From Acidobacteriaceae bacterium (GTDB taxonomy: Bacteria > Acidobacteriota > Terriglobia > Terriglobales > Acidobacteriaceae): a stretch of DNA of 64,000 bases. A model generated the notes under the pieces. It was given only the letters and a program-made list of their open reading frames with translations. It ran no database searches and was not told the DNA's origin. The stretch covers positions 40,130-104,129 of the forward strand of contig PLSM01000094.1 of the NCBI GenBank assembly GCA_003165075.1, in the 5' to 3' direction. This document shows positions 37,576-55,976 of this stretch, piece by piece (position 1 is the stretch's first letter; every line of letters begins with the position of its first letter). A program made the translations under genes and the position numbers.

Positions 37576-38355
37576 CTAGCGGGCCACGATTTTCTGGGCC
37601 ACAGTCACTTCATCGGCATCGGCCTGAATAATCTTGTTATGCAGACAATAGAGAGCCAGTTCAAGCCGGTCCGACACACCCAGCTTGTCATAGATTTTGC
37701 GCAGATAGTTTTTGATAACCTGCTCGGTCGTTCCCAGTTGAAAGGCGATTTCCTTGTTGCGCTTGCCCTGCGTGATGCAGGTAATGATAGCCATTTCCTT
37801 GGGCGACAGGCGCGGCTGGCTGCGGGGGCTGACCAATGAGGCAGCTTGCGCGCGATAGGCTTCAATCACCCAGGTCACTGATTGGTTGTCGATCCATGTT
37901 TCGCCGGCGGCAATCCTGCGCACGCAACGCACCAGCAGGTCGGGTGAAATGGAGCGGGAGATGATGCCGCGAACACCGCGGCGATAAAGCTCGACAGTCT
38001 GGTTCTCATCGGCCGCTATGGCTTGCACAATGAGCTTGACGTCGGGAGCAAGCCGCAGCAGCTCGGGGATGGCATTGGCCGTGCCGACCAACAGACCCCC
38101 TTCAAGCAAAACAATGTCAGTGGGATAGCGTTCGATGGCCGTTCGGAGATTCTCCAGAGAGTCTGCCTGCGCGACCACCCTGAGGTCGTCTTCTACCGCG
38201 AAGATCTTGCGTATCCCCACGCGGTAAATGGCCTGCGAGTCCGCAAGAATAATGCGAACGGTTCCCGGCCTGACCGGTCCGTCGAGCACCTCAACATCAG
38301 GAGAATCGTCTGAACGTTCCATAGTATGCAACTGAAAGCCCACAGGAGCTGTCAC
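37576..38355 (-). CDS. NarL/LuxR family regulator with atypical receiver domain
   Basis: LuxR HTH (NKEIA...TEQVIKNYLRKIYDKLGV); receiver reads LADS and VLLE, i.e. Glu at the phospho-Asp position. Confidence 0.88.
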   Translation of the reverse strand: MTAPVGFQLHTMERSDDSPDVEVLDGPVRPGTVRIILADSQAIYRVGIRKIFAVEDDLRVVAQADSLENLRTAIERYPTDIVLLEGGLLVGTANAIPELLRLAPDVKLIVQAIAADENQTVELYRRGVRGIISRSISPDLLVRCVRRIAAGETWIDNQSVTWVIEAYRAQAASLVSPRSQPRLSPKEMAIITCITQGKRNKEIAFQLGTTEQVIKNYLRKIYDKLGVSDRLELALYCLHNKIIQADADEVTVAQKIVAR

Positions 38356-38714
38356 TGCTCCACAAACCGGTACTCATCGATCGTCGCGGCGGCTTGATAA
38401 TGCTCTTGGCTCATTGAGCAGCGTACCACACGTCCGCGGCACTGAACTAACACATCGTGCGGTGTGCCGAGTACGGTTCCTGGCATGCGCAACGCAAATT
38501 TGATGTCCTGGCCTACATTCAGGGGTCCGTGCAGCTCAAAGAGAACTCCACTGGCCGAAACGTTGCGCGTGACAGCCGGGTTATCTTGAAGGTCATTGGC
38601 AAGCGTCACCCGCAACTCGAGCGGAAAACGCACCGCGCACCGTACTTCCTTGCGGGAAGTACCCAACGTCGATTGGCTCTTCCGGGGTGATAAACCCAAC
38701 TTCGAGGTTTCCAT
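38352..38714 (-). CDS. Single-domain PilZ protein
   Basis: RKEVRCAVR (RxxxR) and NVSASG motifs; GTGA overlap with the regulator. Confidence 0.85.
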   Translation of the reverse strand: METSKLGLSPRKSQSTLGTSRKEVRCAVRFPLELRVTLANDLQDNPAVTRNVSASGVLFELHGPLNVGQDIKFALRMPGTVLGTPHDVLVQCRGRVVRCSMSQEHYQAAATIDEYRFVEQ

Positions 38715-40141: not shown

Positions 40142-40459
40142 CGTTTCCCCTCTTCCGGAGTGTTCCATCGCCAGACTAAAGATAACCCTTCTCTGTCGCC
40201 GACAGCGAGCGGCCTCAACTTTGCACGAAAACCGTACCTCACGTATCAGAAAAGGCCTAGAAGGTGTGATGCAACTCACATTGAATGAGTCCTCGACAGC
40301 ACGTTTGGTCATACGCCGACCTCTACGGCTTGTCTCTAATGGCAAAAAACACCCTTTGAAATAGAAAATTTATAAAATAGTTACTTTTGTGGTAGCCATC
40401 GTGCCTCTTTTGGGGTAGTCTTTTGGGTGCATACCCACAGTTCTAAGGAGCGCCTGTAA

Positions 40460-40594
40460 ATGCTTTCAGCATCTTTGAAGTTTTATAGCGTCGTTTTTGG
40501 GTCCATCTTGGCAGTTTCGGTCACTATCGCGAATGCAAGCCCCATCATCCCGGCTCCGTTGCCGCCGGTTGGACATATTGCCGACGCGGTTTAG
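40460..40594 (+). CDS. Secreted peptide precursor (44 aa) MLSASLKFYSVVFGSILAVSVTIANA-SPIIPAPLPPVGHIADAV
   Basis: Not in the ORF track. AAGGAG RBS 9 nt upstream; hydrophobic signal peptide with A-N-A cleavage motif; Pro-rich 18-aa tail. Confidence 0.78.
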   Translation: MLSASLKFYSVVFGSILAVSVTIANASPIIPAPLPPVGHIADAV

Positions 40595-41468: not shown

Positions 41469-41922
41469 CACGAGTCTGAAACAGACTCAAGATAAGTTCC
41501 CAACCCGGAGTCTGCAATCGGGTCATTAGGTAAAGGAAGATGCATCTACTGGAAACTCCCGCCGACTGAGTCGACCGTCGTGTCTCAGGGTGCAATATTC
41601 TGGAATCGTCTGCTTTCATCTGGGCGCGGTGCCGGCGGAATACCGGGAAAGCTTTAAATTCCCGATAGTTAGGCCGTCCTTATCCTGCCCCAAACGGGGT
41701 GGTCTGCTACCAGAAAGTATCATTGACCCGAAGGGGAAGTTACCTTAAGTTACGAATGTGTACAGATCACGTGGGTACTAATTGGACAAGAAAGCAGTAC
41801 AGAACCACCAAATTTCTACCCGCAGCGATTGATTTTCTGTTACTAATGGAACGTGCAGTGAATACCGACCGGGCCGCCTGGGGGAAATCTGGCGGGGTCA
41901 ATACCCGGTCTAAGGATCGCCA

Positions 41923-42444
41923 ATGATTCTGCCTCTGCTCCAAATCGCTGCAATTGCAATTGTGGCGCTCTATCTCGGCCGCTGGAGACTCGGCGTACGC
42001 CGACAGAACAATCAATCCTGGGAATCGCTTTTAGCCAGGCTGCGGCCTGACTGGAGCGCACGCCAGCTAAGCGATCATTTCCTTTGGAAGGAAGGGCTGG
42101 ACGACGCCACTCCCGAGGAAACCTGGAAGCGTCTCCAGGGCGCCCATGGCCTGTGGGCGATATATCAGAATGCCCGCGTGCTGCTGCAGATGGCCGACTT
42201 CGCATCTCGCAATTGCGACTCCGTGGACCGCGTCCTTCTGGAGACTCTGCGCAGTGATGCCATGCAGATTCGGCTCTGCGTTCTGATGGCTCTTGCCCAG
42301 TATGCTTGCAGCCAAGCGAGCGAAGGCGTCCGCGTGAATGCCTTCCGTGCCGCATCGATGTACACCGGCATGGCCGCACGGATGACACAGTTGCTGCAGG
42401 AGAATGCAGCCGGCCTCGTTCCCGATTTTGTTGCTGCAATGTAG
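41923..42444 (+). CDS. Hypothetical membrane-anchored helical protein
   Basis: N-terminal TM followed by a helical domain; AAGGA RBS; terminator follows. Confidence 0.75.
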   Translation: MILPLLQIAAIAIVALYLGRWRLGVRRQNNQSWESLLARLRPDWSARQLSDHFLWKEGLDDATPEETWKRLQGAHGLWAIYQNARVLLQMADFASRNCDSVDRVLLETLRSDAMQIRLCVLMALAQYACSQASEGVRVNAFRAASMYTGMAARMTQLLQENAAGLVPDFVAAM

Positions 42445-46120: not shown

Positions 46121-48808
46121 ATGCGCGAACATCTGGCTGAACTGCTGAACGACCTCCGCCGATTTGACCGTGGGATTGCGGTGGTTCACTACCGGGGAAA
46201 CCGGCGGCGGGCAACGACGTACGCAGAGCTTGCCCGGTTGGCGGGACGGTTTGCCGCGCTGTTGGCCGCGCGGGACATTGGGCCGGGGGACCGCGTTCTG
46301 CTGTGGGCGGAGAACAGCGCTGAGTGGGTGAGCGCCTTCTATGGCTGCATGCTGCGCGGGGTGCTGGCGGTTCCGCTGGATGCCTATGGAAGCGCGGAGT
46401 TTGCTTCTCGCGTGGCCGCGGACGTGCAGCCACGGCTGGTGATAGGCGACGCGCTGCTGCTGAGCCAACTTGAAGGCATGTGGCCAAAGCTGGTCTTTGA
46501 GGATCTGGCTGGCACGCTACCCACTGAGGAGGCTGGGGCTGTACCCGGCCAGGGCGCGGATACTCCGCTGCAAATTCTCTTTACATCCGGGACAACGGGC
46601 GAGCCCAAAGGCATTGTACATACGCATGGGAACGTGGTCGCCAGCGTATGGCCCATCGAAGAAGCGGCGCAAAGGTATATGCGTTACGAGCGGCTGGTCC
46701 ACCCGCTGCGCTTTTTGCATACCCTGCCGTTGAGCCATGTGTACGGGCAGATGATGGGCATGTGGGTACCGGCAATCTTTGCGGCAGAAGTACACTTTGA
46801 GAGCCGGCTGGTGGCGCCGCGGCTGCTGGAGACGATCAAGCGGGAACGGATCTCAGTGCTGGCGGCGGTGCCGCGTGTCATGGCCCTGCTGAAGACCTAC
46901 CTCGAGACGAGCCAGCCGGGGCTGGCGGAGCGGGTGACAGCCTCGCAAGAGATTGGAGCATGGATGCGGTGGTGGCGCTTTCGCGCCGTGCATCAGGCCT
47001 TTGGGCTGAAGTTCTGGGCGTTGATCTCAGGCGGCGGCGCTCTGCCGGGACCGCTGGAGCAGTTCTGGAACGGGCTGGGATTTGTGGTCGTGCAAGGGTA
47101 CGGGATGACGGAGACTACCGCGCTGATCACGCTCAATCATCCCTTCCACGTAGCGCGCGGAACCTTGGGCAAGCCGCTTCCGGGACGCGAAGTGAAACTT
47201 GGGCCGGACGGCGAAGTACTGGTGCGCGGGCCGGGCATTTCAGGCGCCACGTGGAGCGGTGGCGAGCTGCGACCGCGCGCAGAAGAGTGGCTGGCCACGG
47301 GTGATCTTGCCGAGAGGCAGGCGACGGGCGAGCTGCGTTTCCTGGGGCGCAAGAGCGAGACGATTGTGACCTCGACCGGAGTGAATCTGCACCCTGAAGA
47401 TCTGGAAGCGGCCATCGAGCAAGAGCCGGGCGTTGCGGGCTGCGCGGTGGTGCCGATGGAGACCATCAACGGGCCCGAGGCGTGCGCGGTGCTGGCAGTG
47501 CGAGGCGCTGAGACGCAGGCGGCGAAGGCTGTTGAGCATGCCAATACGCGGTTGGCGGAGTTTCAGCGGGTGCGGCGGTGGGTGCTGTGGCCGGAGCCGG
47601 ATTTGCCGCGCACCTCAACCGGCAAAGTGCGACGGCGAGCGGTGGCGGCGTGGCTGGATGGGATCGTGGCTGCAGCGGCGGGAGGCGCTGGCGCGAAGGC
47701 AGATTTTTCAGCGGCCGGGGACTGGCTGCTGGCGCTGATTGCAGAGATTGCCGGCGAAGCACCGCCGGGTGTGGGCGACGAGTTGCGGTTGGCGGAGGAC
47801 CTGCACCTGGACAGCCTGGGACGCGTGCAACTGGCGGCAGCTATCGAGGAGCGGCTGGGAATGCCGCCGGAAAGCGGGCTACTGGAAGAGGCGCACACAC
47901 TGGGGGATTTGCGCGGGTTGGTTGCCGGAGACGGAGCGGTAAGCAGGAGGAATTACGCGGCTGCCCAGGGCAAAACAGAGACGCAACAAGGTCGAGACGG
48001 CCCCGTCTCCCGCTCTGGTCGCAACAGCAAAGACAACTTAAAGGCGGGACGTCCGGTTGAGGAAGGAATGGGGCATCCCGCAGTGGGGGTGGAGCAGGAG
48101 AGTTACATTTATCCGCATTGGCCGTGGCTAGTGCCGGTTGCGTGGCTGCGAACCGCATTTCAGGAAGCGGTGGCAAGGCCGCTGGTGCGGTTGCTGGCCA
48201 ATCCCCGGGTGACCGGGGCGCACGCACCGGCCGGCGGGGAGCCCATGCTGATCGTGGCCAATCACGTCACGGCCTATGACGGACCCCTGGTGGAGTACGC
48301 ACTGCCGGCGGCGGTGCGGCAGAGAATGGCAGTGGCCATGTCGGGCGAGATGCTAGAGGATTATCGGCACTTTCGCAATCCCGAGGCCGGACCCGGGCAG
48401 CGGCGGTTCATGCTGTCGGGACCGCTGGTCTGGCTGCTGCTGACGGCCCTGTTCAATGTCTTCCCATTGCCGCGGCGGCGGAACTTCGAGCGTAGCTTCC
48501 GGCATACGGGCAAAGCGCTGGATCGAGGGTTCAACGTGCTGGTGTTTCCTGAGGGAACACGCTCGGCGGCGGGGGAGCTGGCACCGTTCCGCCCGGGAAT
48601 TGGGTTGCTGGCGAAGCAGTCGCGGACGGTGGTGCTGCCGGTGGCGATTCGCGGGCTGGGCGAGCTGAAAGTGCAGGGATGGGGATGGTTCCGCTCGGGA
48701 ACAATCGAGGTGCGCGTGGGCGAGCCGCTCCGGTTTGCACACGACGAAAGCGAGACGGCGATTACCGCGCGGCTGCACGCTGAAGTGAAGAGGCTGCTGA
48801 GCGAGTAA
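46121..48808 (+). CDS. AMP-binding acyl ligase / ACP / PlsC acyltransferase fusion (Aas-like)
   Basis: FTSGTTGEPKG; HLDSLGRV phosphopantetheine site; NHVTAYD and FPEGTRS motifs. Confidence 0.9.
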   Translation: MREHLAELLNDLRRFDRGIAVVHYRGNRRRATTYAELARLAGRFAALLAARDIGPGDRVLLWAENSAEWVSAFYGCMLRGVLAVPLDAYGSAEFASRVAADVQPRLVIGDALLLSQLEGMWPKLVFEDLAGTLPTEEAGAVPGQGADTPLQILFTSGTTGEPKGIVHTHGNVVASVWPIEEAAQRYMRYERLVHPLRFLHTLPLSHVYGQMMGMWVPAIFAAEVHFESRLVAPRLLETIKRERISVLAAVPRVMALLKTYLETSQPGLAERVTASQEIGAWMRWWRFRAVHQAFGLKFWALISGGGALPGPLEQFWNGLGFVVVQGYGMTETTALITLNHPFHVARGTLGKPLPGREVKLGPDGEVLVRGPGISGATWSGGELRPRAEEWLATGDLAERQATGELRFLGRKSETIVTSTGVNLHPEDLEAAIEQEPGVAGCAVVPMETINGPEACAVLAVRGAETQAAKAVEHANTRLAEFQRVRRWVLWPEPDLPRTSTGKVRRRAVAAWLDGIVAAAAGGAGAKADFSAAGDWLLALIAEIAGEAPPGVGDELRLAEDLHLDSLGRVQLAAAIEERLGMPPESGLLEEAHTLGDLRGLVAGDGAVSRRNYAAAQGKTETQQGRDGPVSRSGRNSKDNLKAGRPVEEGMGHPAVGVEQESYIYPHWPWLVPVAWLRTAFQEAVARPLVRLLANPRVTGAHAPAGGEPMLIVANHVTAYDGPLVEYALPAAVRQRMAVAMSGEMLEDYRHFRNPEAGPGQRRFMLSGPLVWLLLTALFNVFPLPRRRNFERSFRHTGKALDRGFNVLVFPEGTRSAAGELAPFRPGIGLLAKQSRTVVLPVAIRGLGELKVQGWGWFRSGTIEVRVGEPLRFAHDESETAITARLHAEVKRLLSE

Positions 48809-48956
48809 AGCAGGAGTCCGAGGCCAAGGTCAGTTAGGTGAAGGCTCTGGTTTGTGCGGCCTCAAACGCGATCTGCATCTTAGCGAAACATGCTCTCCAC
48901 CAAGCTTCCAGGTGGCTCGAATTCCAAAATTAGCGAAAAGGAACGGACAAGATCCC

Positions 48957-49727
48957 ATGGGAAACATCACCCGCAGAGACATGTTGGGGCGCTCTTCTCT
49001 TCTGATGGCGTCGATGGGGACAGGGCTACCTTTGACGGCTGCGAATCCGGAGCCTGCGGAAGCAGCGCGCAAGCTAAAGATTGTGGTCGTGGGAGGACAC
49101 CCGGACGACCCTGAATCCGGCTGTGGAGGAACCATCGCGCACTACGCCGGCGAGGGACATGAAGTGGTGATCGTGTACCTTACGCGCGGCGAGAGCGGCA
49201 TCAAGGGAAAGACCATGCAGGAAGCGGCAGCGATTCGCAGCGCGGAGGCCGGGAAAGCTTGCGAGATCCTTCATGCGCGGCCCATCTTCGCTGGCCAGAT
49301 TGACGGTCACACCGAATTGAATCCATCGCTTTACGAGGCCTTCAGGAAGATTCTCGACGTCGAAAATCCCGACGTGGTCTTCACCCATTGGCCCATCGAT
49401 ACGCACCGCGACCATCGGGTTGCGTCTCTGCTGACCTACGACGCCTGGCTGACGGGAGGCAAGAAATTCGATCTTTATTACTTTGAAGTCGAGCAAGGTG
49501 AACAGACCCAGATTTTCCAGCCGACACACTATGTCGACATTTCCACAACCCTGAGCCGCAAGCAGGCAGCATGTTTCGCTCACGCCAGTCAGCATCCTGA
49601 AACGGACTTCTGGCCCCAGCATGAGGCGATGAACCGCTTTCGGGGAATGGAGTGTGGAGTCAAGAATGCAGAAGGGTTCGTCCGGCACTGCCAGAACCAC
49701 GGAATGGACGCTCCGAAGAGGGGATAA
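48957..49727 (+). CDS. PIG-L/LmbE family deacetylase with Tat signal
   Basis: TRRDML leader; HPDDPE and HRDH motifs. Confidence 0.88.
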   Translation: MGNITRRDMLGRSSLLMASMGTGLPLTAANPEPAEAARKLKIVVVGGHPDDPESGCGGTIAHYAGEGHEVVIVYLTRGESGIKGKTMQEAAAIRSAEAGKACEILHARPIFAGQIDGHTELNPSLYEAFRKILDVENPDVVFTHWPIDTHRDHRVASLLTYDAWLTGGKKFDLYYFEVEQGEQTQIFQPTHYVDISTTLSRKQAACFAHASQHPETDFWPQHEAMNRFRGMECGVKNAEGFVRHCQNHGMDAPKRG

Positions 49728-49834
49728 GGGTGCAGCAAAGACCTACCTTGATCGTTGCCGACCCATCGCAGCCCTATGGGGACTGCACGGTGTTGACTGC
49801 CCCACCGTGCAGCACTATCCGTTCTGTGGCCTCG

Positions 49835-50908
49835 TTACTCGTTCGCTAAGTCGTAAAGGTTGGTAGAGAATGCCGCGTAATACGACTCCACCGCCCCACG
49901 ATGGCCATTGCAGCGCGCGTAAAGTTCAAGACCCCGACGGGTAGGAGTTATATCGGCAACTTCCAGGGTCGCAAGGCGCGAAGACTTCTCACTCTTCTTA
50001 ATCAACTCAAGGTTGGAAAGATGTCCAAGATCGCGGTCGATCCTGACGTGTTCGCGCGGGTCTGTCCTCGTAATGATCTCCTGCGCAGAGCAGGAAGGCG
50101 GATGGGAAGGCGTCCACCCATGTTCGGTCCGGGGCTCGGTGGACTTGGAACATACGACGGCCAGAATTTGAGCATGTATGGGTGTAAGTTGACTGAGCGC
50201 GTACACATAAGGCAGATTCGATTCGTCGTTTCCCATGACCGTGCATGAGGTAGCCAGCAGATTCGCCCAGAAATGCTGCAGCCAATCGGGGTCCGCCCAT
50301 GATCCGTCCTCAATTATGCGCACCACGACGCGAGGGTGAGCCAGCAAGCGTGAGGAATCGGGTGCCCACGCCAGCAACTCTTCAGTTTTGAGCGCAATCT
50401 CCACCGCACTCAAAATTCTGAAGTCGCTCGTTCCCTGGTGCATGAATTCCGCGATTTCTCTCGCGGCTTCGGGCGAAATTCGACTTAGAAACGCTAGTGC
50501 TCCGGCCTTGCGGAACTCCCTGAGAATGTCGTCCGGACCCGGTGCCGCATCTTCCTCGGATTTGGCATCCGTTTCCCAAAGGCGCACGTCCATGCCGGTG
50601 GGCAGAACAAAGGAAAAGCCGATTCCATCGTCGCCCCAGCGCACTGCCCTGGCCTGCACCGAAAACCGCCGCTCAGAAACTTTCTCGGGCGGCCCGTGAC
50701 GCTGCAACGTCAGCGAGACCACCTCACCGGGGACCCAGCGATCACGGGTCAAAAGGTAAACCCCGGTCGAACTGATATCCCGAATATCGAATTGCCTCGG
50801 TCCCGAGCCGGCCCAATGATACGCAGCAAGCCCGGGAGCAGTTCGGCGTTCAGGCCTTGGGGGACCCGAATAAGAAGAAGCCTTGATCCATTTACTTAGT
50901 GCAGTCAT
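49835..50908 (-). CDS. PilZ plus Abi-alpha/DUF4393-like fusion, paralog 1
   Basis: RPERR, DISSTG; WANLLATSC, LSQLTPIHAQIL, ITPTRRGLELYARC. Confidence 0.75.
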   Translation of the reverse strand: MTALSKWIKASSYSGPPRPERRTAPGLAAYHWAGSGPRQFDIRDISSTGVYLLTRDRWVPGEVVSLTLQRHGPPEKVSERRFSVQARAVRWGDDGIGFSFVLPTGMDVRLWETDAKSEEDAAPGPDDILREFRKAGALAFLSRISPEAAREIAEFMHQGTSDFRILSAVEIALKTEELLAWAPDSSRLLAHPRVVVRIIEDGSWADPDWLQHFWANLLATSCTVMGNDESNLPYVYALSQLTPIHAQILAVVCSKSTEPRTEHGWTPSHPPSCSAQEIITRTDPREHVRIDRDLGHLSNLELIKKSEKSSRLATLEVADITPTRRGLELYARCNGHRGAVESYYAAFSTNLYDLANE

Positions 50909-51032
50909 GTCACCCCCTGTCGGAAAGATCCATGCATCTGATCCAACCGCTGCGGTCGGGACAGTCGGCCCTGGTCAACTTTCCAATGCCGCAGACAGGT
51001 TAGAGATTTTATCTGAGGAGCATCCTACTCTC

Positions 51033-51074
51033 GTAAATCCCACTTTTGTAGCAGGCTCAGTTACTTCCAGGCAC
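51033..51074 (-). promoter_or_regulatory. Conserved upstream element of the PilZ fusion genes (copy 1)
   Basis: gtaaatcccacttttgtagcagg...cagttactt..aggcac, 125 bp from the start codon. Confidence 0.7.
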
Positions 51075-51241
51075 TACGGTGCCTCTTTAGTGTTACCAGC
51101 GCCTACTCGTGTACAAATGTGACAACGCGCACTCCCCAAAAAGGGAAGTTCTGGCTGCTTGAAAACCGGACTAGACTGCGGGCTTGAACGGGATTGGGCG
51201 GGGAGGCCCGCACGCATGCGCGGGCTCATCCGGCGACAGCT

Positions 51242-52318
51242 TTAAAGTTGAGGCTCGTTGGCAAAAAATACTGCGGCAGGTGTGACTCCAACAAACTCAG
51301 TTGACCCTTCCCGACGACCGCTGCAACGTGCGTGCAACTGTTGACCGAGAGGTGTAGGAGCGATATTGGCGTCTTCTACGGGTGTAAAGCGTGAAGACTT
51401 CACTCTCTTCTCAAGCAAGCCCAGGTCAGACAGATGCTCGAGGTCCCGATCAAGCTTCAACATCTCGCGTGAACCTGTCACCTTCATCATCTCTTCGGGT
51501 GTGCAGGCCAACGAGCGTGGAGAAATCCGTCCAATACCTGAAAAGCCTTGAACTCCCTTGGTGCATGCAGTAGCGAGCATACGAACGTGAATCGGTGTGA
51601 GTTGACTGAGCAGGTTAGCAAAGACCAGGTTCGAATCGTCATTGCCTTCAACGGTGCAGGCTGTGGCCAGAAGCCCGGCCCACATTTGCTGTATCGATTC
51701 ACTGTCAGCCCATGATCCGTCTTCGAGAATGCGCAAGACCAGATCGGCACGAGCGCGCATCCTGGCGGCATCCGGCGCGGATGCCAGGAGCTTTTCGGCT
51801 TTGGCCGCGATCTCCAGCGCGCTTTCGACGCGATAGTTGCTCAATCCTTCGCGGAACAATCGCCGCGCGTCTTCCTCCGCGGCTGGAGATATGCGGCGCA
51901 GAAATGCGAGCGCTTCAGCGACCCGGAACTCCCTCAGGACATCACTCGGATCGGTCAGATCGTCCGCGGTCTTGAGTCGACTCTCCCAAAGATGCAAATC
52001 CGTGCCCGGGGGCAGGACGAAGGACAAACCGACGCCATCTTCGCCCCACCGTATGGCCCGAGCTTGCACCGCAATGCGGCGCTCAGGACTACTCTCCGGC
52101 GGGCCAATCATCTGCAATGTAAGGGAGACCAGTGCACCGGGAGTCCAGCGTTCTTCGGTCAGCAGGTAGACTCCGGTGGAGCTGATATCACGGATGCTGT
52201 TTTGCTTCGGAGCCGAACCAGTCCAGCAGTACGCAGCCAGCCCCGGCACGCTGCGCCGTTCAGGCCTTTGCTGATTCGGAGATGTCGATTTCTCTGACCT
52301 GCCCAGTGATGGATTCAT
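51242..52318 (-). CDS. PilZ plus Abi-alpha/DUF4393-like fusion, paralog 2
   Basis: RPERR, DISSTG; WAGLLATAC, LSQLTPIH, IAPTPLGQQLHARC. Confidence 0.75.
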   Translation of the reverse strand: MNPSLGRSEKSTSPNQQRPERRSVPGLAAYCWTGSAPKQNSIRDISSTGVYLLTEERWTPGALVSLTLQMIGPPESSPERRIAVQARAIRWGEDGVGLSFVLPPGTDLHLWESRLKTADDLTDPSDVLREFRVAEALAFLRRISPAAEEDARRLFREGLSNYRVESALEIAAKAEKLLASAPDAARMRARADLVLRILEDGSWADSESIQQMWAGLLATACTVEGNDDSNLVFANLLSQLTPIHVRMLATACTKGVQGFSGIGRISPRSLACTPEEMMKVTGSREMLKLDRDLEHLSDLGLLEKRVKSSRFTPVEDANIAPTPLGQQLHARCSGRREGSTEFVGVTPAAVFFANEPQL

Positions 52319-52441
52319 ACCGCTCCCATTTGAAAATCGCGAAATTTTAAATGGCGGGGAAGCCGTGGGAAGTTAACCCTTTGCCGCCGCCACGGTCCGC
52401 GCGGCCGGCAAGTAGCTTCTCCTTCAGAAAATCTTACTCCT

Positions 52442-52485
52442 GTAAATCCCACTTTTGTAGCAGGGGGACCAGTTACTTTAGGCAC
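52442..52485 (-). promoter_or_regulatory. Conserved upstream element of the PilZ fusion genes (copy 2)
   Basis: 23-nt block identical to copy 1, 124 bp from the start codon. Confidence 0.7.
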
Positions 52486-52611
52486 GTGATCTGTAAGTTC
52501 TTGGTGTGGGCGCACTTTCGGTCGAGCGGCAATAAAATGCGGTGGCACGTCACGAGGACCCACCCGTGCAATTGGGGGATTTCCGCCCGATCTGCCTCAC
52601 GCGCTTCCGGT

Positions 52612-53676
52612 TCATTCCCCTTGGGCGGTGGTGTAAAAGGTCGCCGGGCTATAAAAACTCTGCACCTCTCCCCGATACGCATTGCAGCGTGCGTTCAGTT
52701 CCAGGCCGAAATCTGTGGGAGTGATAGGGGCGTCTCTGAAGGCCTCGAGGCGTGAGGACATCTCAATCTTCTTGATCAGCTCCATGTTTTCCAGATGCCC
52801 GAGATCCCGATCGATGCGAACCAGTTCGCGCGTATCCATCTTCTCTATAATTTCCGCGACCGAGCTGGAGGGTGGATGGGAGCCCGCCCATCCCGGCTCG
52901 GCCATTGCTTTGGCAGCCTTGGCGCAGATAATGGCGAGGATACGTGCGTGAATGGGTGTGAGCTGACTGAAGACATCGATTAACGCCAGATTCAATGAGC
53001 TGACTTCATCCAAGGTGCAGGAGGTAGCCAGGAGTCCCGCCCAAAAGTGCTGCAGCCACTCGGCTTCAGCCCATGACCCGTCTTCAAAGACCCGCACCAG
53101 GATATCTGGATGGACGCGCATTCGGTCGGTAAGCGATCCAAATGCCAGCAACTCTTCAGCTTTGACCGCAATGGCCAGCGCGCTCGAACATCTTTGACGG
53201 CTCAGACCTTTGCGCATCAGCTGCTCAACTCTCTCAGCAGCATCAGGGGAAATGCGCCGCAGAAAAGCACCGGCTTCGGCGATCCGGAATTCCCTCACGA
53301 CATCTTCCGGATCGACCGCGTCCTCCTCGAATTCCGATGTTTCTTCCCAGAGATGTACTTTCATGCCAGAGGGCAAGACAAACGCCAGGCCCATGCCATC
53401 GTCGCCCCAGCGGACAGTCCTTGCCTTCAAGTCAAAACGGCGCTCGGGACTCAGCTCCGGCGGCCCATCTTTTTGCAGGGACAGCGAGACCAGATCACCC
53501 GGTATCCAGCGCTCCGGAGTCTCCAGGTATACCCCTGTCGAGCTGATGTCCTTGATGGGGACCGCCACCGGATTTGAGCTGTTCGTCTTGTATGCTGTCA
53601 GACCAGGCGCGGGCCGCCGTGCGGGCCTTCGGTGACGGGCATACGAAGGCTTGATCCATTTGCTGAGTGGGCTCAT
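52612..53676 (-). CDS. PilZ plus Abi-alpha/DUF4393-like fusion, paralog 3
   Basis: RRPARR, DISSTG; WAGLLATSC, FSQLTPIHARIL, ITPTDFGLELNARC. Confidence 0.75.
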   Translation of the reverse strand: MSPLSKWIKPSYARHRRPARRPAPGLTAYKTNSSNPVAVPIKDISSTGVYLETPERWIPGDLVSLSLQKDGPPELSPERRFDLKARTVRWGDDGMGLAFVLPSGMKVHLWEETSEFEEDAVDPEDVVREFRIAEAGAFLRRISPDAAERVEQLMRKGLSRQRCSSALAIAVKAEELLAFGSLTDRMRVHPDILVRVFEDGSWAEAEWLQHFWAGLLATSCTLDEVSSLNLALIDVFSQLTPIHARILAIICAKAAKAMAEPGWAGSHPPSSSVAEIIEKMDTRELVRIDRDLGHLENMELIKKIEMSSRLEAFRDAPITPTDFGLELNARCNAYRGEVQSFYSPATFYTTAQGE

Positions 53677-53800
53677 GCTGTTCTCCCGCCTGAATGCGCC
53701 GGACAGTTCCTGGGTCCGGTGGAGATTGGAGGTTCAACTTTAGCACAGACTCCAACTCCCCAGCCCGGGAGATGATTCTCTGTTGTGCAGTTTACCTTTG

Positions 53801-53824
53801 GTCAATCCCACCTTGGCAATAAGG
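53801..53824 (-). promoter_or_regulatory. Degenerate upstream element of the PilZ fusion genes (copy 3)
   Basis: gtcaatcccaccttggcaataagg, 125 bp from the start codon. Confidence 0.5.
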
Positions 53825-54044
53825 GCCATGAAGTTGAGAACCAAGGTACTAATCCCCCAAGCGGAGATCGGGGGGCAAGTTAAGCCAATGTACCGGCGAA
53901 GGTCCATTGGGATCGCTACATCGAGAACGCCCGCCTGGGACGAGAAAACGAGATAAGAGATTCGAAATCAGAGGGACAGAGAGCGGTGCCTCTTTTTGCC
54001 CCGGCATGTACAGCGGGAGCGGGAATGCGATAGCCTCATGGTTC

Positions 54045-54488
54045 ATGGTTCCTGCGGATCAAAATACAAGCCATTCCAACGGGCCCCTGGATGCGGCACT
54101 GGAGAGCCTGCTGGGCATGGCACGCCAGGCAGCTCTGCACAGCTACGCGCCGTACTCGGGCTTCAGAGTGGGGGCGGCACTGCGCCTGACCAACGGTGAG
54201 ACGGTGACCGGAACCAATGTGGAGAACGTGAGCTATGGTCTCACCATCTGCGCGGAGCGTGCGGCCCTGGTGCAGGCGGTGAGCGAGTTCGGGCCGCAGA
54301 TTCGCGTAGAGGCAGTGGCCATCGCCAATCTGAATGAAGCCGCGAGCCCACCCTGCGGCGCATGCCGGCAGGTACTGGCAGAGTTCATATTGCCCGAGGC
54401 GCCGGTGGTGTTTCCCGCTGCCGGCGGGATGCGGGTAATGCCCTTCTCCGCCCTGATGCCGCTGGCGTTTGAGATGAAGTTGAAGTAG
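54045..54488 (+). CDS. cdd: Cytidine deaminase
   Basis: YAPYSGFRVGAA, CAE and PCGACRQ motifs. Confidence 0.92.
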   Translation: MVPADQNTSHSNGPLDAALESLLGMARQAALHSYAPYSGFRVGAALRLTNGETVTGTNVENVSYGLTICAERAALVQAVSEFGPQIRVEAVAIANLNEAASPPCGACRQVLAEFILPEAPVVFPAAGGMRVMPFSALMPLAFEMKLK

Positions 54489-54557
54489 ATCCGTAAGGGG
54501 GCGATGCTTCACCTTGCGAGAATGCCAACAGCCCGGAAATCAAGGAGCCAATCGCTG

Positions 54558-55976
54558 ATGTCTGCGAATGCCGCTGCGCCGCTGCACATGATCGACCTCA
54601 TCCGTAAAAAGCGCGATGGCAGAGCGCTGGACGCGCGCGAGATCGAATTTCTGGCAGCGGGAGCGGCGGACGGAACGATTCCGCAGGAACAGCTTGCGGC
54701 GTGGCTGATGGCGGCATGGCTGCAGGGGCTGACGGTAGAGGAGACACGAGCTCTGACCGTTGCCATGCGCGACTCGGGCGAAAAGTTCGATCCGTCGCGG
54801 CTGGGCAAAGTGGCCGTAGACAAGCATTCAACGGGCGGCGTGGGCGACAAGACTAGCTTTCTGGTAGCTCCACTGGCCGCTGCTTGCGGGCTCGCAGTGC
54901 CCATGATCAGCGGACGTGCGCTGGGGCATACGGGTGGAACCCTGGACAAGCTGGAGGCGATTCCCGGCTTCAGGTCGGCGCTCTCGCTCGATGAATTCGA
55001 GACCGTCCTGGCGCGGTGCGGAGCCGCAATTGTGAGCCAGACGCCGGCGCTGGTTCCCGCCGACCGCGTGCTGTATGCGCTGCGCGACCGGACCGGGACG
55101 GTAGAGAGTCCGGGGCTGATTTGTGCCTCGATTTTGAGCAAAAAGCTGGCCGCAGGTCTGGATGCGCTTGTGCTGGATGTGAAAACGGGCTCGGGTGCGT
55201 TTCTGCGCCGGCGCGAGGACGCCGAATACCTGGCCGCGCTGATGGTAGCCACGGCCGAGGCCGCGGGAACGCGCACTGTGGCCCTGATGACGGATATGGG
55301 ACAACCGCTGGGACGCATGGCGGGTAACTGGATCGAGTTGGTGGAGTGCGTGGAGTTGCTGCGCGGCGAGCGGCCGGCCGGCAGCGAGGACTTACGCGAG
55401 CTGTCGTTGACGCTGGCCGGCTGGATGATCATGTTGGGCGGCAAGGCAGAGACGCCCGAGGCAGGCTACCGCATGGCCGAGGCTGCGCTGACAGATGGCG
55501 CGGCGCTGGCCACATTTTGCAAGATGGTCGATGCCCAGGGAGGGGATGTCGCGGTCTTCGATGACCTGAAGGGGTTCCACAAGCCAGGCGCGACAAGCGT
55601 GCTGAAGGCTTGGGAGAGCGGGTTCATTGCGGAGATGGACACCAGCGCGCTGGGCTGGGCAGTACAGCGCCTGGGCGCGGGACGCGAGAAGGCCGGCGGA
55701 GCCGGGGCCCCCAGCGACAGGTCCTCGTCGCTGGGGTTGGAACCCGTCGACCCCCATGCGGGCATTGAATTCCATGCGCGGCGCGGGGCGACGGTGGAGC
55801 GGGGCGAGCCGCTGGCGACTCTGTATGCCACCCGGGTGGAGATGATGGCGGAGCCGATGGAACTGATGAAGAAAGCCATCGTGATTGCCGATGTTCCGCC
55901 CGAAGATGTGCCTCTGCTGAGCCATATCTTTACCCGTGAAAATGCGGAGGCATATCTACGCGATGCGATAAGGTAG
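54558..55976 (+). CDS. pdp: Pyrimidine-nucleoside (thymidine) phosphorylase
   Basis: DKHSTGGVGDK, MISGRALGHTGGT, SILSKK motifs. Confidence 0.92.
   Translation: MSANAAAPLHMIDLIRKKRDGRALDAREIEFLAAGAADGTIPQEQLAAWLMAAWLQGLTVEETRALTVAMRDSGEKFDPSRLGKVAVDKHSTGGVGDKTSFLVAPLAAACGLAVPMISGRALGHTGGTLDKLEAIPGFRSALSLDEFETVLARCGAAIVSQTPALVPADRVLYALRDRTGTVESPGLICASILSKKLAAGLDALVLDVKTGSGAFLRRREDAEYLAALMVATAEAAGTRTVALMTDMGQPLGRMAGNWIELVECVELLRGERPAGSEDLRELSLTLAGWMIMLGGKAETPEAGYRMAEAALTDGAALATFCKMVDAQGGDVAVFDDLKGFHKPGATSVLKAWESGFIAEMDTSALGWAVQRLGAGREKAGGAGAPSDRSSSLGLEPVDPHAGIEFHARRGATVERGEPLATLYATRVEMMAEPMELMKKAIVIADVPPEDVPLLSHIFTRENAEAYLRDAIR
55709..55736. repeat. 10-bp-stem palindrome inside the pdp coding sequence
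   Basis: ccccagcgac-aggtcctc-gtcgctgggg. Confidence 0.75.

What the first reader, a model, noticed from the sequence alone, without database searches (positions are those of the whole stretch)
49835..53676. Three tandem PilZ / Abi-alpha(DUF4393)-like fusion paralogs: a possible cyclic-dinucleotide-gated effector array
Seen in sequence: three 354-358 aa paralogs, each with intact PilZ motifs (RxxxR and DISSTG). The C-domain carries WA[NG]LLAT[SA]C...SQLTPIH..[IM]L...DRDL.HL..[LM].L[IL]...PT..G..L.ARC. Established knowledge: PilZ binds c-di-GMP. The 'W..LLA...L.QL.P.....L...L.NL..LGL...T..G..F..AC' pattern is what I recall for the DUF4393/Abi-alpha family, a member of which causes abortive infection. 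Inference: a second-messenger sensor fused to an Abi-type domain, triplicated and diverged, perhaps linking c-di-GMP state to cell fate or defence. I know of no description of this fusion.
Basis: partly seen in the sequence, partly recalled or inferred. Interest (0 to 1): 0.8.

Follow-up and report, generated by a model that had tools for sequence, protein, structure and literature searches.

The report
PilZ–Abi-alpha c-di-GMP receptor paralogs
Three neighbouring genes each fuse a cyclic-di-GMP-sensing PilZ domain to an "abortive infection alpha" domain, but their setting suggests a genus-specific family of signalling proteins that borrowed a phage-defence domain, not an active anti-phage system.

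Summary
Three minus-strand ORFs of 357, 358 and 354 aa (51-57% identical) each pass the Pfam thresholds for PilZ and Abi_alpha, with RxxxR and DxSxxG intact. The same genome has two more copies elsewhere.

The family is confined to one Acidobacteriaceae genus (Terracidiphilus, now Occallatibacter), with 1-6 copies in 15 of 25 genomes. The window's array sits in a conserved housekeeping slot between an acyl-CoA synthetase/acyltransferase gene and cdd-deoA-nupC. In other species that slot also holds a cheA-W-Y-B-R operon just upstream.

- The genes are under purifying selection (dN/dS 0.12-0.20).
- The ancestral copy carries a private, genus-conserved 33-nt upstream element.
- A confident AF2 model shows a PilZ barrel, a helical bundle and a C-terminal winged helix, with no transmembrane or enzymatic domain.
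- Close relatives fuse the same C-domain to receiver (REC) domains.
- Two of three standalone relatives examined lie beside defence genes.

Best reading (about 0.55): these are c-di-GMP receptors whose co-opted Abi-alpha module is a regulated binding output, possibly binding DNA. A c-di-GMP-gated lysis or defence effector remains possible (about 0.2). I found no published description of this fusion. No expression or biochemical data were available.

The parts
49835..50908 (-). PA1, a PilZ-Abi_alpha fusion gene (357 aa), on the side next to the acyl-CoA synthetase gene. It is a lineage-specific duplicate.
   Evidence: ORF. Pfam PilZ 23.4 bits and Abi_alpha 45.7 bits. The tree places it in a G000-specific clade with PA3 and the C108 copy, support 100/99.
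50597..50860 (-). PA1 PilZ domain (residues about 17-104), including RPERR and DISSTG.
   Evidence: boundaries taken by homology to the PA2 model.
49901..50539 (-). PA1 Abi_alpha-type C-domain (residues about 124-336): a helical bundle plus a winged helix.
   Evidence: and models of the paralog PA2.
51022..51054 (-). Conserved 33-nt upstream element of PA1 (CTGCTACAAAAGTGGGATTTACGAGAGTAGGAT), about 115-145 nt upstream of the start codon.
   Evidence: 91% identical to the PA2 copy. Scores 53.1 bits on the weight matrix and is one of only two hits in the 5.68-Mb genome.
51242..52318 (-). PA2, a PilZ-Abi_alpha fusion gene (358 aa). It is the ortholog of the ancestral, che-proximal gene of this locus.
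   Evidence: ORF. Pfam PilZ 22.6 bits and Abi_alpha 55.5 bits. Groups with the single-copy and cdd-side orthologs of other species, support 86/95. dN/dS is 0.12-0.20 against 85-93% identical orthologs.
52007..52273 (-). PA2 PilZ beta-barrel (residues about 16-104). RxxxR (R18-R22) is at 52253-52267 and DISSTG (residues 44-49) at 52172-52189.
   Evidence: AF2 strands span residues 27-101 with pLDDT above 90. Foldseek matches c-di-GMP-bound PilZ structures 4xrn, 4rt1 and 8u0i at E about 3e-4.
51314..51952 (-). PA2 Abi_alpha-type C-domain (residues about 123-335). It has seven helices, then a winged helix formed by H242-257, H274-281, H286-298, hairpin 302-321 and H323-332.
   Evidence: AF2 models with pLDDT 84 and 88. 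Foldseek gives weak matches of the last 100 or so residues to MarR-family, ORC, MotA and Rio2 winged helices.
52431..52463 (-). Conserved 33-nt upstream element of PA2 (CTGCTACAAAAGTGGGATTTACAGGAGTAAGAT).
   Evidence: Conserved upstream of the orthologous gene in all species examined (A4). The weight-matrix scan also recovers held-out loci L006 (38.5 bits) and L008 (34.3 bits). It is unique in the genome apart from the PA1 copy.
52612..53676 (-). PA3, a PilZ-Abi_alpha fusion gene (354 aa), on the cdd side. It is a lineage-specific duplicate that occupies the place where other species have the che operon.
   Evidence: ORF. Pfam PilZ 28.8 bits and Abi_alpha 41 bits. Tree. dN/dS 0.15. Synteny.
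53374..53640 (-). PA3 PilZ domain (residues about 13-101), including RPARR and DISSTG.
52678..53319 (-). PA3 Abi_alpha-type C-domain (residues about 120-333).
53804..53811 (-). Degenerate remnant (GTGGGATT core) of the upstream element, in front of PA3.
   Evidence: It scores below threshold on the weight matrix, and the 8-mer count in the window is not significant on its own (4 observed against 1.8 expected).

Best explanation
PA1, PA2 and PA3 are cytoplasmic c-di-GMP receptor proteins of a family specific to the genus Terracidiphilus/Occallatibacter. The N-terminal PilZ beta-barrel binds c-di-GMP through its RxxxR and D/NxSxxG motifs (inferred from the motifs and the fold). Binding is relayed through the long linker helices to an output module co-opted from the Abi-alpha (DUF4393) family. 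That module is a helical bundle ending in a winged helix, and ligand binding changes how it engages its target (inferred). The target is most likely DNA or a partner protein, not a membrane or an enzymatic substrate. A concrete testable version is c-di-GMP-dependent binding to the private 33-nt element conserved upstream of the ancestral gene, which would amount to autoregulation. The array arose by repeated tandem duplication of a single ancestral gene that lies downstream of a chemosensory operon in related species. The copies are kept by purifying selection, presumably as receptors with different affinities or targets. On this reading they are signalling components and not a dedicated anti-phage system.
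For: Domains and motifs: with both motifs in 125 of 131 members. Fold: a confident model (pLDDT 84, pTM 0.80) with a PilZ barrel matching c-di-GMP-bound PilZ structures and a C-terminal winged helix. The proteins are soluble, with no transmembrane segment and no enzymatic domain. The genome has 23 GGDEF matches but only 8 PilZ HMM hits, so these paralogs are a large share of its candidate receptors. Input-domain swapping: relatives with about 35% identical C-domains are fused to REC receivers, which is typical of an output domain. Context: a fixed slot between the acyl-CoA synthetase/acyltransferase gene and cdd-deoA-nupC in at least 10 genomes or contigs, with cheA-W-Y-B-R directly upstream in 6 of them and no defence or mobile genes. 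A second conserved locus lies next to a J-domain gene. Distribution is genus-restricted. Purifying selection acts on all three structured domains: dN/dS 0.12-0.20 against 0.10 for cdd and deoA. The ancestral copy has a genus-conserved private cis element. By contrast, two of three standalone Abi-alpha relatives lie beside HEPN_Swt1/DUF5343 or a Type ISP restriction-modification gene.
Against: The PilZ HMM scores are only just above threshold. The winged-helix similarity is weak (Foldseek E 0.05-1), and no winged-helix sequence family is hit. The putative recognition helix is rather acidic and nearly invariant among the paralogs, which fits a shared protein partner as well as it fits DNA. The PA proteins diverge faster between species (39-48% identity) than their neighbours do (64-86%), and copy number varies from 0 to 6 within the genus. 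Both features are also seen in defence genes. The only experimentally characterised member of the C-domain family is an abortive-infection protein (PMC6356687).
Confidence: 0.55

Rival explanations
1. This is a c-di-GMP-gated Abi-type effector. The Abi-alpha module keeps its ancestral activity of premature lysis or growth arrest, and PilZ puts it under c-di-GMP control, either for anti-phage defence or for programmed lysis or dormancy, for example in biofilms. The diverged paralogs would broaden specificity.
For: The C-domain is a true Abi_alpha member by HMM, and its nearest PilZ-less relatives are annotated Abi-alpha proteins, some of them beside defence genes. Abi-alpha causes premature lysis in E. 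faecalis (PMC6356687). The PA proteins diverge fast between species, vary in copy number and have duplicated repeatedly. c-di-GMP-triggered abortive infection has a precedent in bacterial STING (PMC12421889 abstract). PADLOC gives weak hits to the candidate system PDC-S47 (E 8e-6 to 0.04).
Against: There is no defence island, prophage, integrase or dedicated cyclase nearby. The family shows stable synteny and genus-restricted inheritance. There is no gene-wide signal of positive selection. The same domain is fused to REC. Housekeeping c-di-GMP from 23 GGDEF proteins would be a poor infection-specific signal. No transmembrane or lytic domain is present.
Confidence: 0.2
2. This is a MapZ-like adaptor of the neighbouring chemosensory pathway. 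c-di-GMP-bound PilZ, with the Abi-alpha module acting as a scaffold, binds CheR or another Che protein and tunes chemoreceptor methylation or the pathway's output.
For: In G003, G004, G007 and three metagenome contigs the gene, or the whole triplet, lies directly downstream of cheR on the same strand. The MapZ-CheR1 system is an established PilZ precedent (PMC6370697). MapZ-CheR1 complexes appear among the fold hits (5y4r, 5xly).
Against: The window's genome, G001, G006 and L017 keep the PA genes but have lost that che operon from the slot, and G000 has only a distant che cluster on another contig. Presence and absence in the genus are independent: 8 genomes have both, 7 che only, 7 PA only and 3 neither. 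The PA gene has its own conserved upstream element about 200 nt after cheR. The fold hits to MapZ are generic PilZ matches with poor rmsd.
Confidence: 0.12
3. The PilZ domain is non-canonical and does not bind c-di-GMP. It serves only as a protein-interaction or structural module, and the proteins act independently of the second messenger.
For: The PilZ HMM scores are marginal at 22.6-28.8 bits against a cut-off of 22.5. Non-binding PilZ families are documented (10.1101/2020.02.11.943704).
Against: Both binding motifs are intact here and in 125 of 131 family members. The PilZ domain is under purifying selection, with dN/dS 0.12. The fold matches ligand-bound PilZ structures.
Confidence: 0.08

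Closest known systems
PilZ-domain c-di-GMP receptors with an attached output domain (YcgR, Alg44, MrkH, PlzA, MapZ)
   Same: They share an N-terminal RxxxR loop and a D/NxSxxG beta-barrel. The fold matches c-di-GMP-bound Alg44, PA0012, MrkH and YcgR structures. The logic is that of a one-protein receptor: a sensor domain plus an output domain.
   Different: The output domain is Abi_alpha/DUF4393, a partner I did not find in any paper searched. The large PilZ survey covered only proteins of 280 aa or less. The family is confined to one acidobacterial genus and expanded to 1-6 copies per genome.
Abi-alpha (EF2833 of E. faecalis V583 prophage 6; DUF4393/PF14337; phage phiNM1 gp17)
   Same: The C-domain scores 41-55 bits against PF14337. 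The core motifs appear in the same order as in phiNM1 gp17: W/F-A-x-L-[LI]-A-S-S, then LSQLTP/LKQLSP, then LGLL/LGVL, then a C-terminal Cys. hhalign gives E 1.6e-3 over 114 columns. Weak cross-hits to DUF2806 match what was reported for Abi-alpha.
   Different: Only profile positions 9-146 of 196 are matched. The gene is not prophage-borne and not in a defence island. The protein is fused to PilZ. It has clade-specific conserved Cys and His residues that are absent from phiNM1 gp17. No abortive-infection phenotype is known or testable here.
MarR-type winged-helix transcription factors, and c-di-GMP-responsive DNA-binding proteins such as MrkH
   Same: The last 100 or so residues fold as helix, helix, helix, beta-hairpin, helix. 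They give Foldseek matches to MexR, MftR-DNA, MarR, MepR and SlyA-DNA with TM-scores (normalised to the target) of 0.41-0.50.
   Different: The matches are statistically weak (E 0.05-1). No MarR/HTH Pfam family is hit. The N-terminal helical bundle has no solved counterpart. DNA binding is untested.
Bacterial STING / CBASS (cyclic-dinucleotide-gated abortive infection)
   Same: The concept is the same: a cyclic-dinucleotide sensor fused to a death or defence effector. Some bacterial STINGs sense 3'3'-c-di-GMP (PMC12421889 abstract).
   Different: The sensor fold is different (PilZ, not STING). No adjacent CD-NTase or other CBASS gene is present. The context is housekeeping, and the effector domain has no known enzymatic activity.

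Membership tests
PilZ (PF07238) c-di-GMP-binding domain | HMM score at or above the Pfam gathering threshold | tested here: met
   Scores are 23.4, 22.6 and 28.8 bits against a cut-off of 22.5. They are marginal, but all three pass.
PilZ (PF07238) c-di-GMP-binding domain | RxxxR motif in the N-terminal loop and D/NxSxxG motif in the barrel | tested here: met
   RPERR/RPARR and DISSTG are present in all three paralogs. Both motifs occur with the correct spacing in 125 of 131 family members.
PilZ (PF07238) c-di-GMP-binding domain | Six-stranded beta-barrel fold like that of solved PilZ domains | tested here: met
   AF2 strands span residues 27-101 with pLDDT above 90. Foldseek gives E 3e-4 and TM-scores (normalised to the target) of 0.60-0.65 to c-di-GMP-bound Alg44, PA0012 and 4xrn.
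PilZ (PF07238) c-di-GMP-binding domain | Measured binding of c-di-GMP | not testable with these tools
   This needs ITC, DRaCALA or MST on purified protein.
Abi_alpha / DUF4393 (PF14337) | HMM score at or above the Pfam gathering threshold | tested here: met
   Scores are 45.7, 55.5 and 41.0 bits against a cut-off of 29, covering profile positions 9-146 of 196. 49 of 52 aligned relatives also match.
Abi_alpha / DUF4393 (PF14337) | Detectable homology to an undisputed prophage member | tested here: inconclusive
   phiNM1 gp17 scores 152 bits on PF14337. hhalign of the family profile against it gives E 1.6e-3 but a probability of only 16%, over 114 core columns.
Abi_alpha / DUF4393 (PF14337) | Structural match to an Abi-alpha structure | tested here: inconclusive
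   No PDB sequence or fold match covers the whole domain. The best BFVD hits have E about 0.02 and TM about 0.4 over about 208 columns, and they are unnamed.
Abi_alpha / DUF4393 (PF14337) | Prophage or defence-island context typical of characterised members | tested here: not met
   The flanks are AMP-binding/acyltransferase, PIG-L, cdd, deoA and nupC genes. The same slot in other genomes holds a che operon. Standalone relatives, by contrast, lie beside HEPN_Swt1 or Type ISP R-M genes.
Abi_alpha / DUF4393 (PF14337) | Abortive-infection phenotype (premature lysis on phage infection) | not testable with these tools
   This is known only for EF2833 (PMC6356687).
MarR-like winged-helix DNA-binding regulators | Winged-helix fold | tested here: inconclusive
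   The predicted topology is H-H-H-hairpin-H. Foldseek matches many MarR-family structures with probability 0.8-1.0, but with E 0.05-1 and TM-scores (normalised to the target) of 0.41-0.50.
MarR-like winged-helix DNA-binding regulators | Sequence-family membership (MarR/HTH Pfam models) | tested here: not met
   No winged-helix family is hit recurrently at E of 1 or below in 52 relatives.
MapZ-type CheR adaptor | Genomic and phyletic coupling to a che pathway | tested here: not met
   Adjacency to cheR holds in 6 of 10 locus-A examples but not in the window. Presence and absence are independent: 8 both, 7 che only, 7 PA only, 3 neither.
CBASS/STING-type cyclic-dinucleotide-gated defence | A dedicated cyclase (CD-NTase) encoded next to the effector | tested here: not met
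   None of the annotated neighbours is a nucleotidyltransferase.

The most novel reading that the evidence does not exclude
The Abi-alpha module keeps a lysis- or arrest-inducing activity, and in this genus it has been placed under c-di-GMP control by fusion to PilZ (and under phosphorylation control by fusion to REC in relatives). That would give a family of second-messenger-gated cell-fate or anti-phage switches. It would be the first PilZ-based abortive-infection-type effector, and a natural handle for working out how the mechanistically unknown Abi-alpha domain is switched on.
Probability: 0.2. Interest if true: 0.8.

Novelty: new variant of a known kind. Interest (0 to 1): 0.5.

Why it matters
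Abi-alpha/DUF4393 is widespread in prophages and abundantly expressed there, but its mechanism is unknown. Here the same domain is wired to two classic signalling inputs, PilZ and REC, which argues that it is an allosterically switchable output module ending in a winged helix. It also provides soluble, ligand-controllable versions for studying what the domain binds. For c-di-GMP biology, this adds an undescribed receptor class that appears to be the dominant PilZ type in a common soil and peat acidobacterial genus whose signalling is essentially unstudied. It is also a clear example of a defence-type domain being co-opted into a chromosomal signalling family, or, if the rival reading is right, of c-di-GMP controlling an Abi effector.

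Tried and rejected
- **Rfam.** A scan of 48500-54600 at E of 1 or below found nothing, so there is no c-di-GMP riboswitch or other known RNA in the intergenic regions.
- **PDB sequence search.** No hit.
- **Phage collection.** tblastn of the C-domain gave only a 54-residue, E 5e-3 hit in Gordonia phages.
- **phiNM1 gp03.** I first guessed this was the DUF4393 protein. That was wrong; the correct gene, gp17, was found with the HMM.
- **Regulon hypothesis.** A genome-wide weight-matrix scan for the upstream element found only the PA1 and PA2 copies, so it is not a regulon motif. Its resemblance to sequences upstream of the 41923 gene and the peptide locus is short and was not pursued.
- **Promoter and terminator scans.** Sigma-70-type scans were uninformative.
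- **Obligate che-PA coupling.** Rejected on presence/absence counts.
- **Winged-helix sequence families.** Not supported.
- **Structure libraries.** BFVD and PDB fold searches gave no significant whole-domain match for the C-domain.

Full report
**Observation**

They are 51-57% identical, with 136 invariant columns.

Each passes the Pfam gathering cut-offs for both domains:
- PilZ scores 22.6-28.8 bits against a cut-off of 22.5, which is marginal.
- Abi_alpha/DUF4393 scores 41-55.5 bits against a cut-off of 29, over profile positions 9-146 of 196.

The RxxxR motif (RPERR/RPARR) and the DxSxxG motif (DISSTG) are intact in all three.

Other library searches added little:
- PADLOC gives only weak hits to the candidate system PDC-S47.
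- NCBIfam gives only a sub-threshold PilZ-like paralog-domain hit.
- Rfam finds no RNA family in the region.
- The PDB has no sequence relative.

**Scope of the family**

The array is part of a larger family. The same genome (5.68 Mb, 194 contigs) has five Abi_alpha matches, and all five are PilZ-Abi_alpha fusions. Two lie on other contigs: C126, next to a J-domain gene and a TetR gene, and C108.

Full-length homologs number in the hundreds. Wherever a source names them, they come from Terracidiphilus or Acidobacteriaceae MAGs and are annotated only as "PilZ domain-containing" or "hypothetical". NCBI now files Terracidiphilus under Occallatibacter.

- Of the 25 same-genus genomes (G000 included), 15 carry 1-6 full-length copies.
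- None of 16 genomes from the sister family carries one.
- In a 301-genome sample of the phylum, only same-genus genomes gave full-length matches.
- An exhaustive search of 1.84 billion representative proteins found 146 clusters at E of 1e-30 or below.

**Architectures**

Three related forms exist besides the 350-aa form:
- **Long forms (550-880 aa).** The PilZ-Abi_alpha module is preceded by a conserved N-domain of about 120 aa, weakly DUF192-like (E 0.06), and a long acidic or proline-rich linker.
- **Standalone Abi-alpha proteins (about 245 aa).** Their C-domains are 35-40% identical to those of the PA proteins.
- **Abi_alpha-REC fusions.** The same C-domain is joined to a response-regulator receiver domain.

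The window's genome also has proteins with the N-domain, the linker and the same PilZ subtype but no Abi_alpha domain. The LSKWIK stretch before the RxxxR motif in PA1 and PA3 matches the W[LF]..W[LI] stretch at the end of the linker in the long forms. This suggests, by inference, that the short forms derive from a long form by loss of its N-terminus.

**Structure**

An AlphaFold2 model of PA2, built on 56 homologs, is confident (pLDDT 84, pTM 0.80). It shows:
- a PilZ beta-barrel at residues 27-101;
- a helical bundle at residues 124-238;
- a C-terminal winged helix formed by H242-257, H274-281, H286-298, a hairpin at 302-321 and H323-332.

Foldseek matches the barrel to c-di-GMP-bound PilZ structures (Alg44, PA0012, MrkH, YcgR) at E of about 3e-4.

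A second model of the C-domain alone has pLDDT 88. It has no significant whole-domain match in the PDB or in the BFVD viral structure library. Only its last 100 or so residues resemble winged helices, namely MarR-family proteins, ORC, MotA, Rio2 and LexA DNA-binding domains. Those matches have high Foldseek probability but E of 0.05-1. No winged-helix Pfam family is hit recurrently among 52 relatives.

The winged helix is therefore a fold-level inference, not a demonstrated DNA-binding domain.

The proteins are soluble, with no transmembrane segment.

**Membership in Abi_alpha**

Membership rests on the HMM score, supported by a profile alignment to a true prophage member. That member is phiNM1 gp17, which scores 152 bits on PF14337. 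hhalign gives E 1.6e-3 over 114 core columns, but a probability of only 16%. Five relatives also hit DUF2806 weakly, as was reported for Abi-alpha itself (PMC6356687).

**Genomic context**

The array lies between an AMP-binding/PP-binding/acyltransferase gene followed by a PIG-L gene on one side, and cdd-deoA-nupC on the other. This slot is conserved:
- G001, G006 and G007 have three tandem copies in the same place.
- G004 has one copy.
- A near-identical metagenome contig has the order cdd, PA3-like, PA2-like.

In G003, G004, G007 and three long metagenome contigs, the slot also holds a cheA-cheW-(cheY)-cheB-cheR operon. It ends about 200 nt upstream of the PA gene, or of the triplet, on the same strand.

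The window's genome, G001, G006 and L017 lack that operon in the slot. G000 has only a che cluster of about 40-50% identity on C22. Across the genus the two features are independent: 8 genomes have both, 7 have che only, 7 have PA only and 3 have neither. The che neighbourhood is therefore context, not proof of a functional link.

No defence or mobile-element gene was seen at any PA locus examined. By contrast, two of three standalone Abi-alpha relatives sit beside a DUF5343/HEPN_Swt1 pair or a Type ISP restriction-modification gene. That standalone clade also spans phyla.

**Evolution**

In a maximum-likelihood tree, the triplets of G001, G006 and G007 form three positional ortholog clades, each with 100% support.

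In the window's genome:
- PA2 groups with the che-proximal or cdd-side clade and with the single-copy genes (support 86/95).
- PA1, PA3 and the dispersed C108 copy form a lineage-specific clade (support 100/99).

The three-copy state therefore arose at least partly independently at the same locus.

dN/dS values against close orthologs:

| Gene | dN/dS |
|---|---|
| PA2 | 0.12-0.20 |
| PA3 | 0.15 |
| cdd | 0.10 |
| deoA | 0.10 |

In the closest PA2 pair, the only one split by domain, dN/dS is 0.12 for the PilZ domain, 0.13 for the helical bundle and 0.15 for the winged helix. Only the disordered C-terminal tail looks neutral.

Even so, PA proteins are only 39-48% identical between species whose flanking proteins are 64-86% identical.

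**Regulatory element**

A 33-nt element lies 110-145 nt upstream of the che-proximal or cdd-side ortholog in every species examined. Its consensus is CTnnTAC(A/C)AAAG(T/A)GGGATT(T/G)AC(A/G)GGAGTA(A/G)(A/G)AT.

- The surrounding intergenic DNA is otherwise diverged.
- A weight matrix also recovers two loci not used to build it: 38.5 bits in G001 and 34.3 bits in G006.
- In the window's genome it occurs exactly twice: upstream of PA2 (52431-52463) and upstream of PA1 (51022-51054). Nothing else in 5.68 Mb scores above 14 bits.

It is therefore a private cis element of this gene, and a concrete candidate operator or promoter.

**Interpretation**

The genome encodes 23 GGDEF matches but few PilZ receptors, so these paralogs are probably major c-di-GMP receptors in this organism.

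Several features fit a signalling receptor family better than a mobile anti-phage gene:
- the binding motifs are conserved (125 of 131 members);
- the same output domain is paired with either PilZ or REC as input;
- the synteny is stable;
- selection is purifying;
- the upstream regulatory element is conserved and dedicated.

I therefore favour, at about 0.55, a c-di-GMP-controlled binding module co-opted from the Abi-alpha family. Its target would be DNA, possibly its own upstream element, or a protein partner.

The rivals are:
- **c-di-GMP-gated lysis or defence effector (about 0.2).** Fast divergence, variable copy number and the only known function of the domain family keep this alive.
- **MapZ-like Che adaptor (about 0.12).**
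- **Non-binding PilZ (about 0.08).**

**Novelty**

Full-text searches for PilZ together with DUF4393 or Abi-alpha found no description of this fusion. The large PilZ survey excluded proteins over 280 aa. The architecture is implicit in precomputed database domain annotations. I rate it a new variant of a known kind: a PilZ receptor with an undescribed output domain.

Every functional step beyond domain identity is inference.

Noticed in passing
L006:5870-5902, L007:9998-10030, L008:5894-5926: In G001, G006 and G007 the left half of the conserved upstream element is a perfect palindrome, ATCCCA-N6-TGGGAT. In the window's genome the left arm is degenerate (TGCTAC...TGGGAT). This may be a lineage-specific operator or a hairpin.
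   Followed up: partly
window 51242-52318 (PA2 residues C221, H244, C252, C332), and the equivalent positions in PA1 and PA3: Three cysteines and a histidine in the Abi_alpha-type domain are invariant or at least 90% conserved across the family, including the standalone and REC-fused relatives. phiNM1 gp17 shares only the last cysteine. This could be a metal or redox site.
   Followed up: partly
G000 C118:2088-3152, C58:55402-56730 and C148:131207-132181 (all outside the window): A second paralog family in the same genome has a conserved N-domain of about 120 aa (weakly DUF192-like, E 0.06), an acidic linker and the same PilZ subtype, but no Abi_alpha domain. Long forms of the Abi fusion (550-880 aa) in other genomes combine both layouts.
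   Followed up: partly
window 48852-49727: The PIG-L family deacetylase gene between the acyl-CoA synthetase/acyltransferase gene and PA1 has no counterpart in the syntenic loci of G001, G004, G006 or G007 (no tblastn hit). It appears to be a lineage-specific insertion into the slot.
   Followed up: partly
L004:2-490 (G000 C126) and L025:6859-7584: The second conserved PA locus is transcribed divergently from a J-domain (DnaJ-like) gene whose C-terminus also looks like a winged helix. PilZ-chaperone links to cell death have been described in Myxococcus (PMC10313047 abstract).
   Followed up: no
window 41650-41925 and 40300-40480: Short sequences resembling the TAC(A/C)A.AAAGT part of the PA upstream element occur upstream of the 41923 gene (CTGCTACCAGAAAGTATCATTGAC) and, in reverse complement, upstream of the small-peptide locus. 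They do not reach the weight-matrix threshold.
   Followed up: partly
window 38397-38645: A separate single-domain PilZ gene scores 37.8 bits on the PilZ HMM. It corresponds to the ORF at 38352-38714 that another first-stage note describes as coupled to a LuxR-type regulator.
   Followed up: no
L028:7001-9141 and L029:2807-7744: Standalone Abi-alpha genes in other bacteria lie immediately beside a DUF5343 + HEPN_Swt1 pair, or beside a Type ISP restriction-modification enzyme. These may be undescribed defence gene pairings.
   Followed up: no
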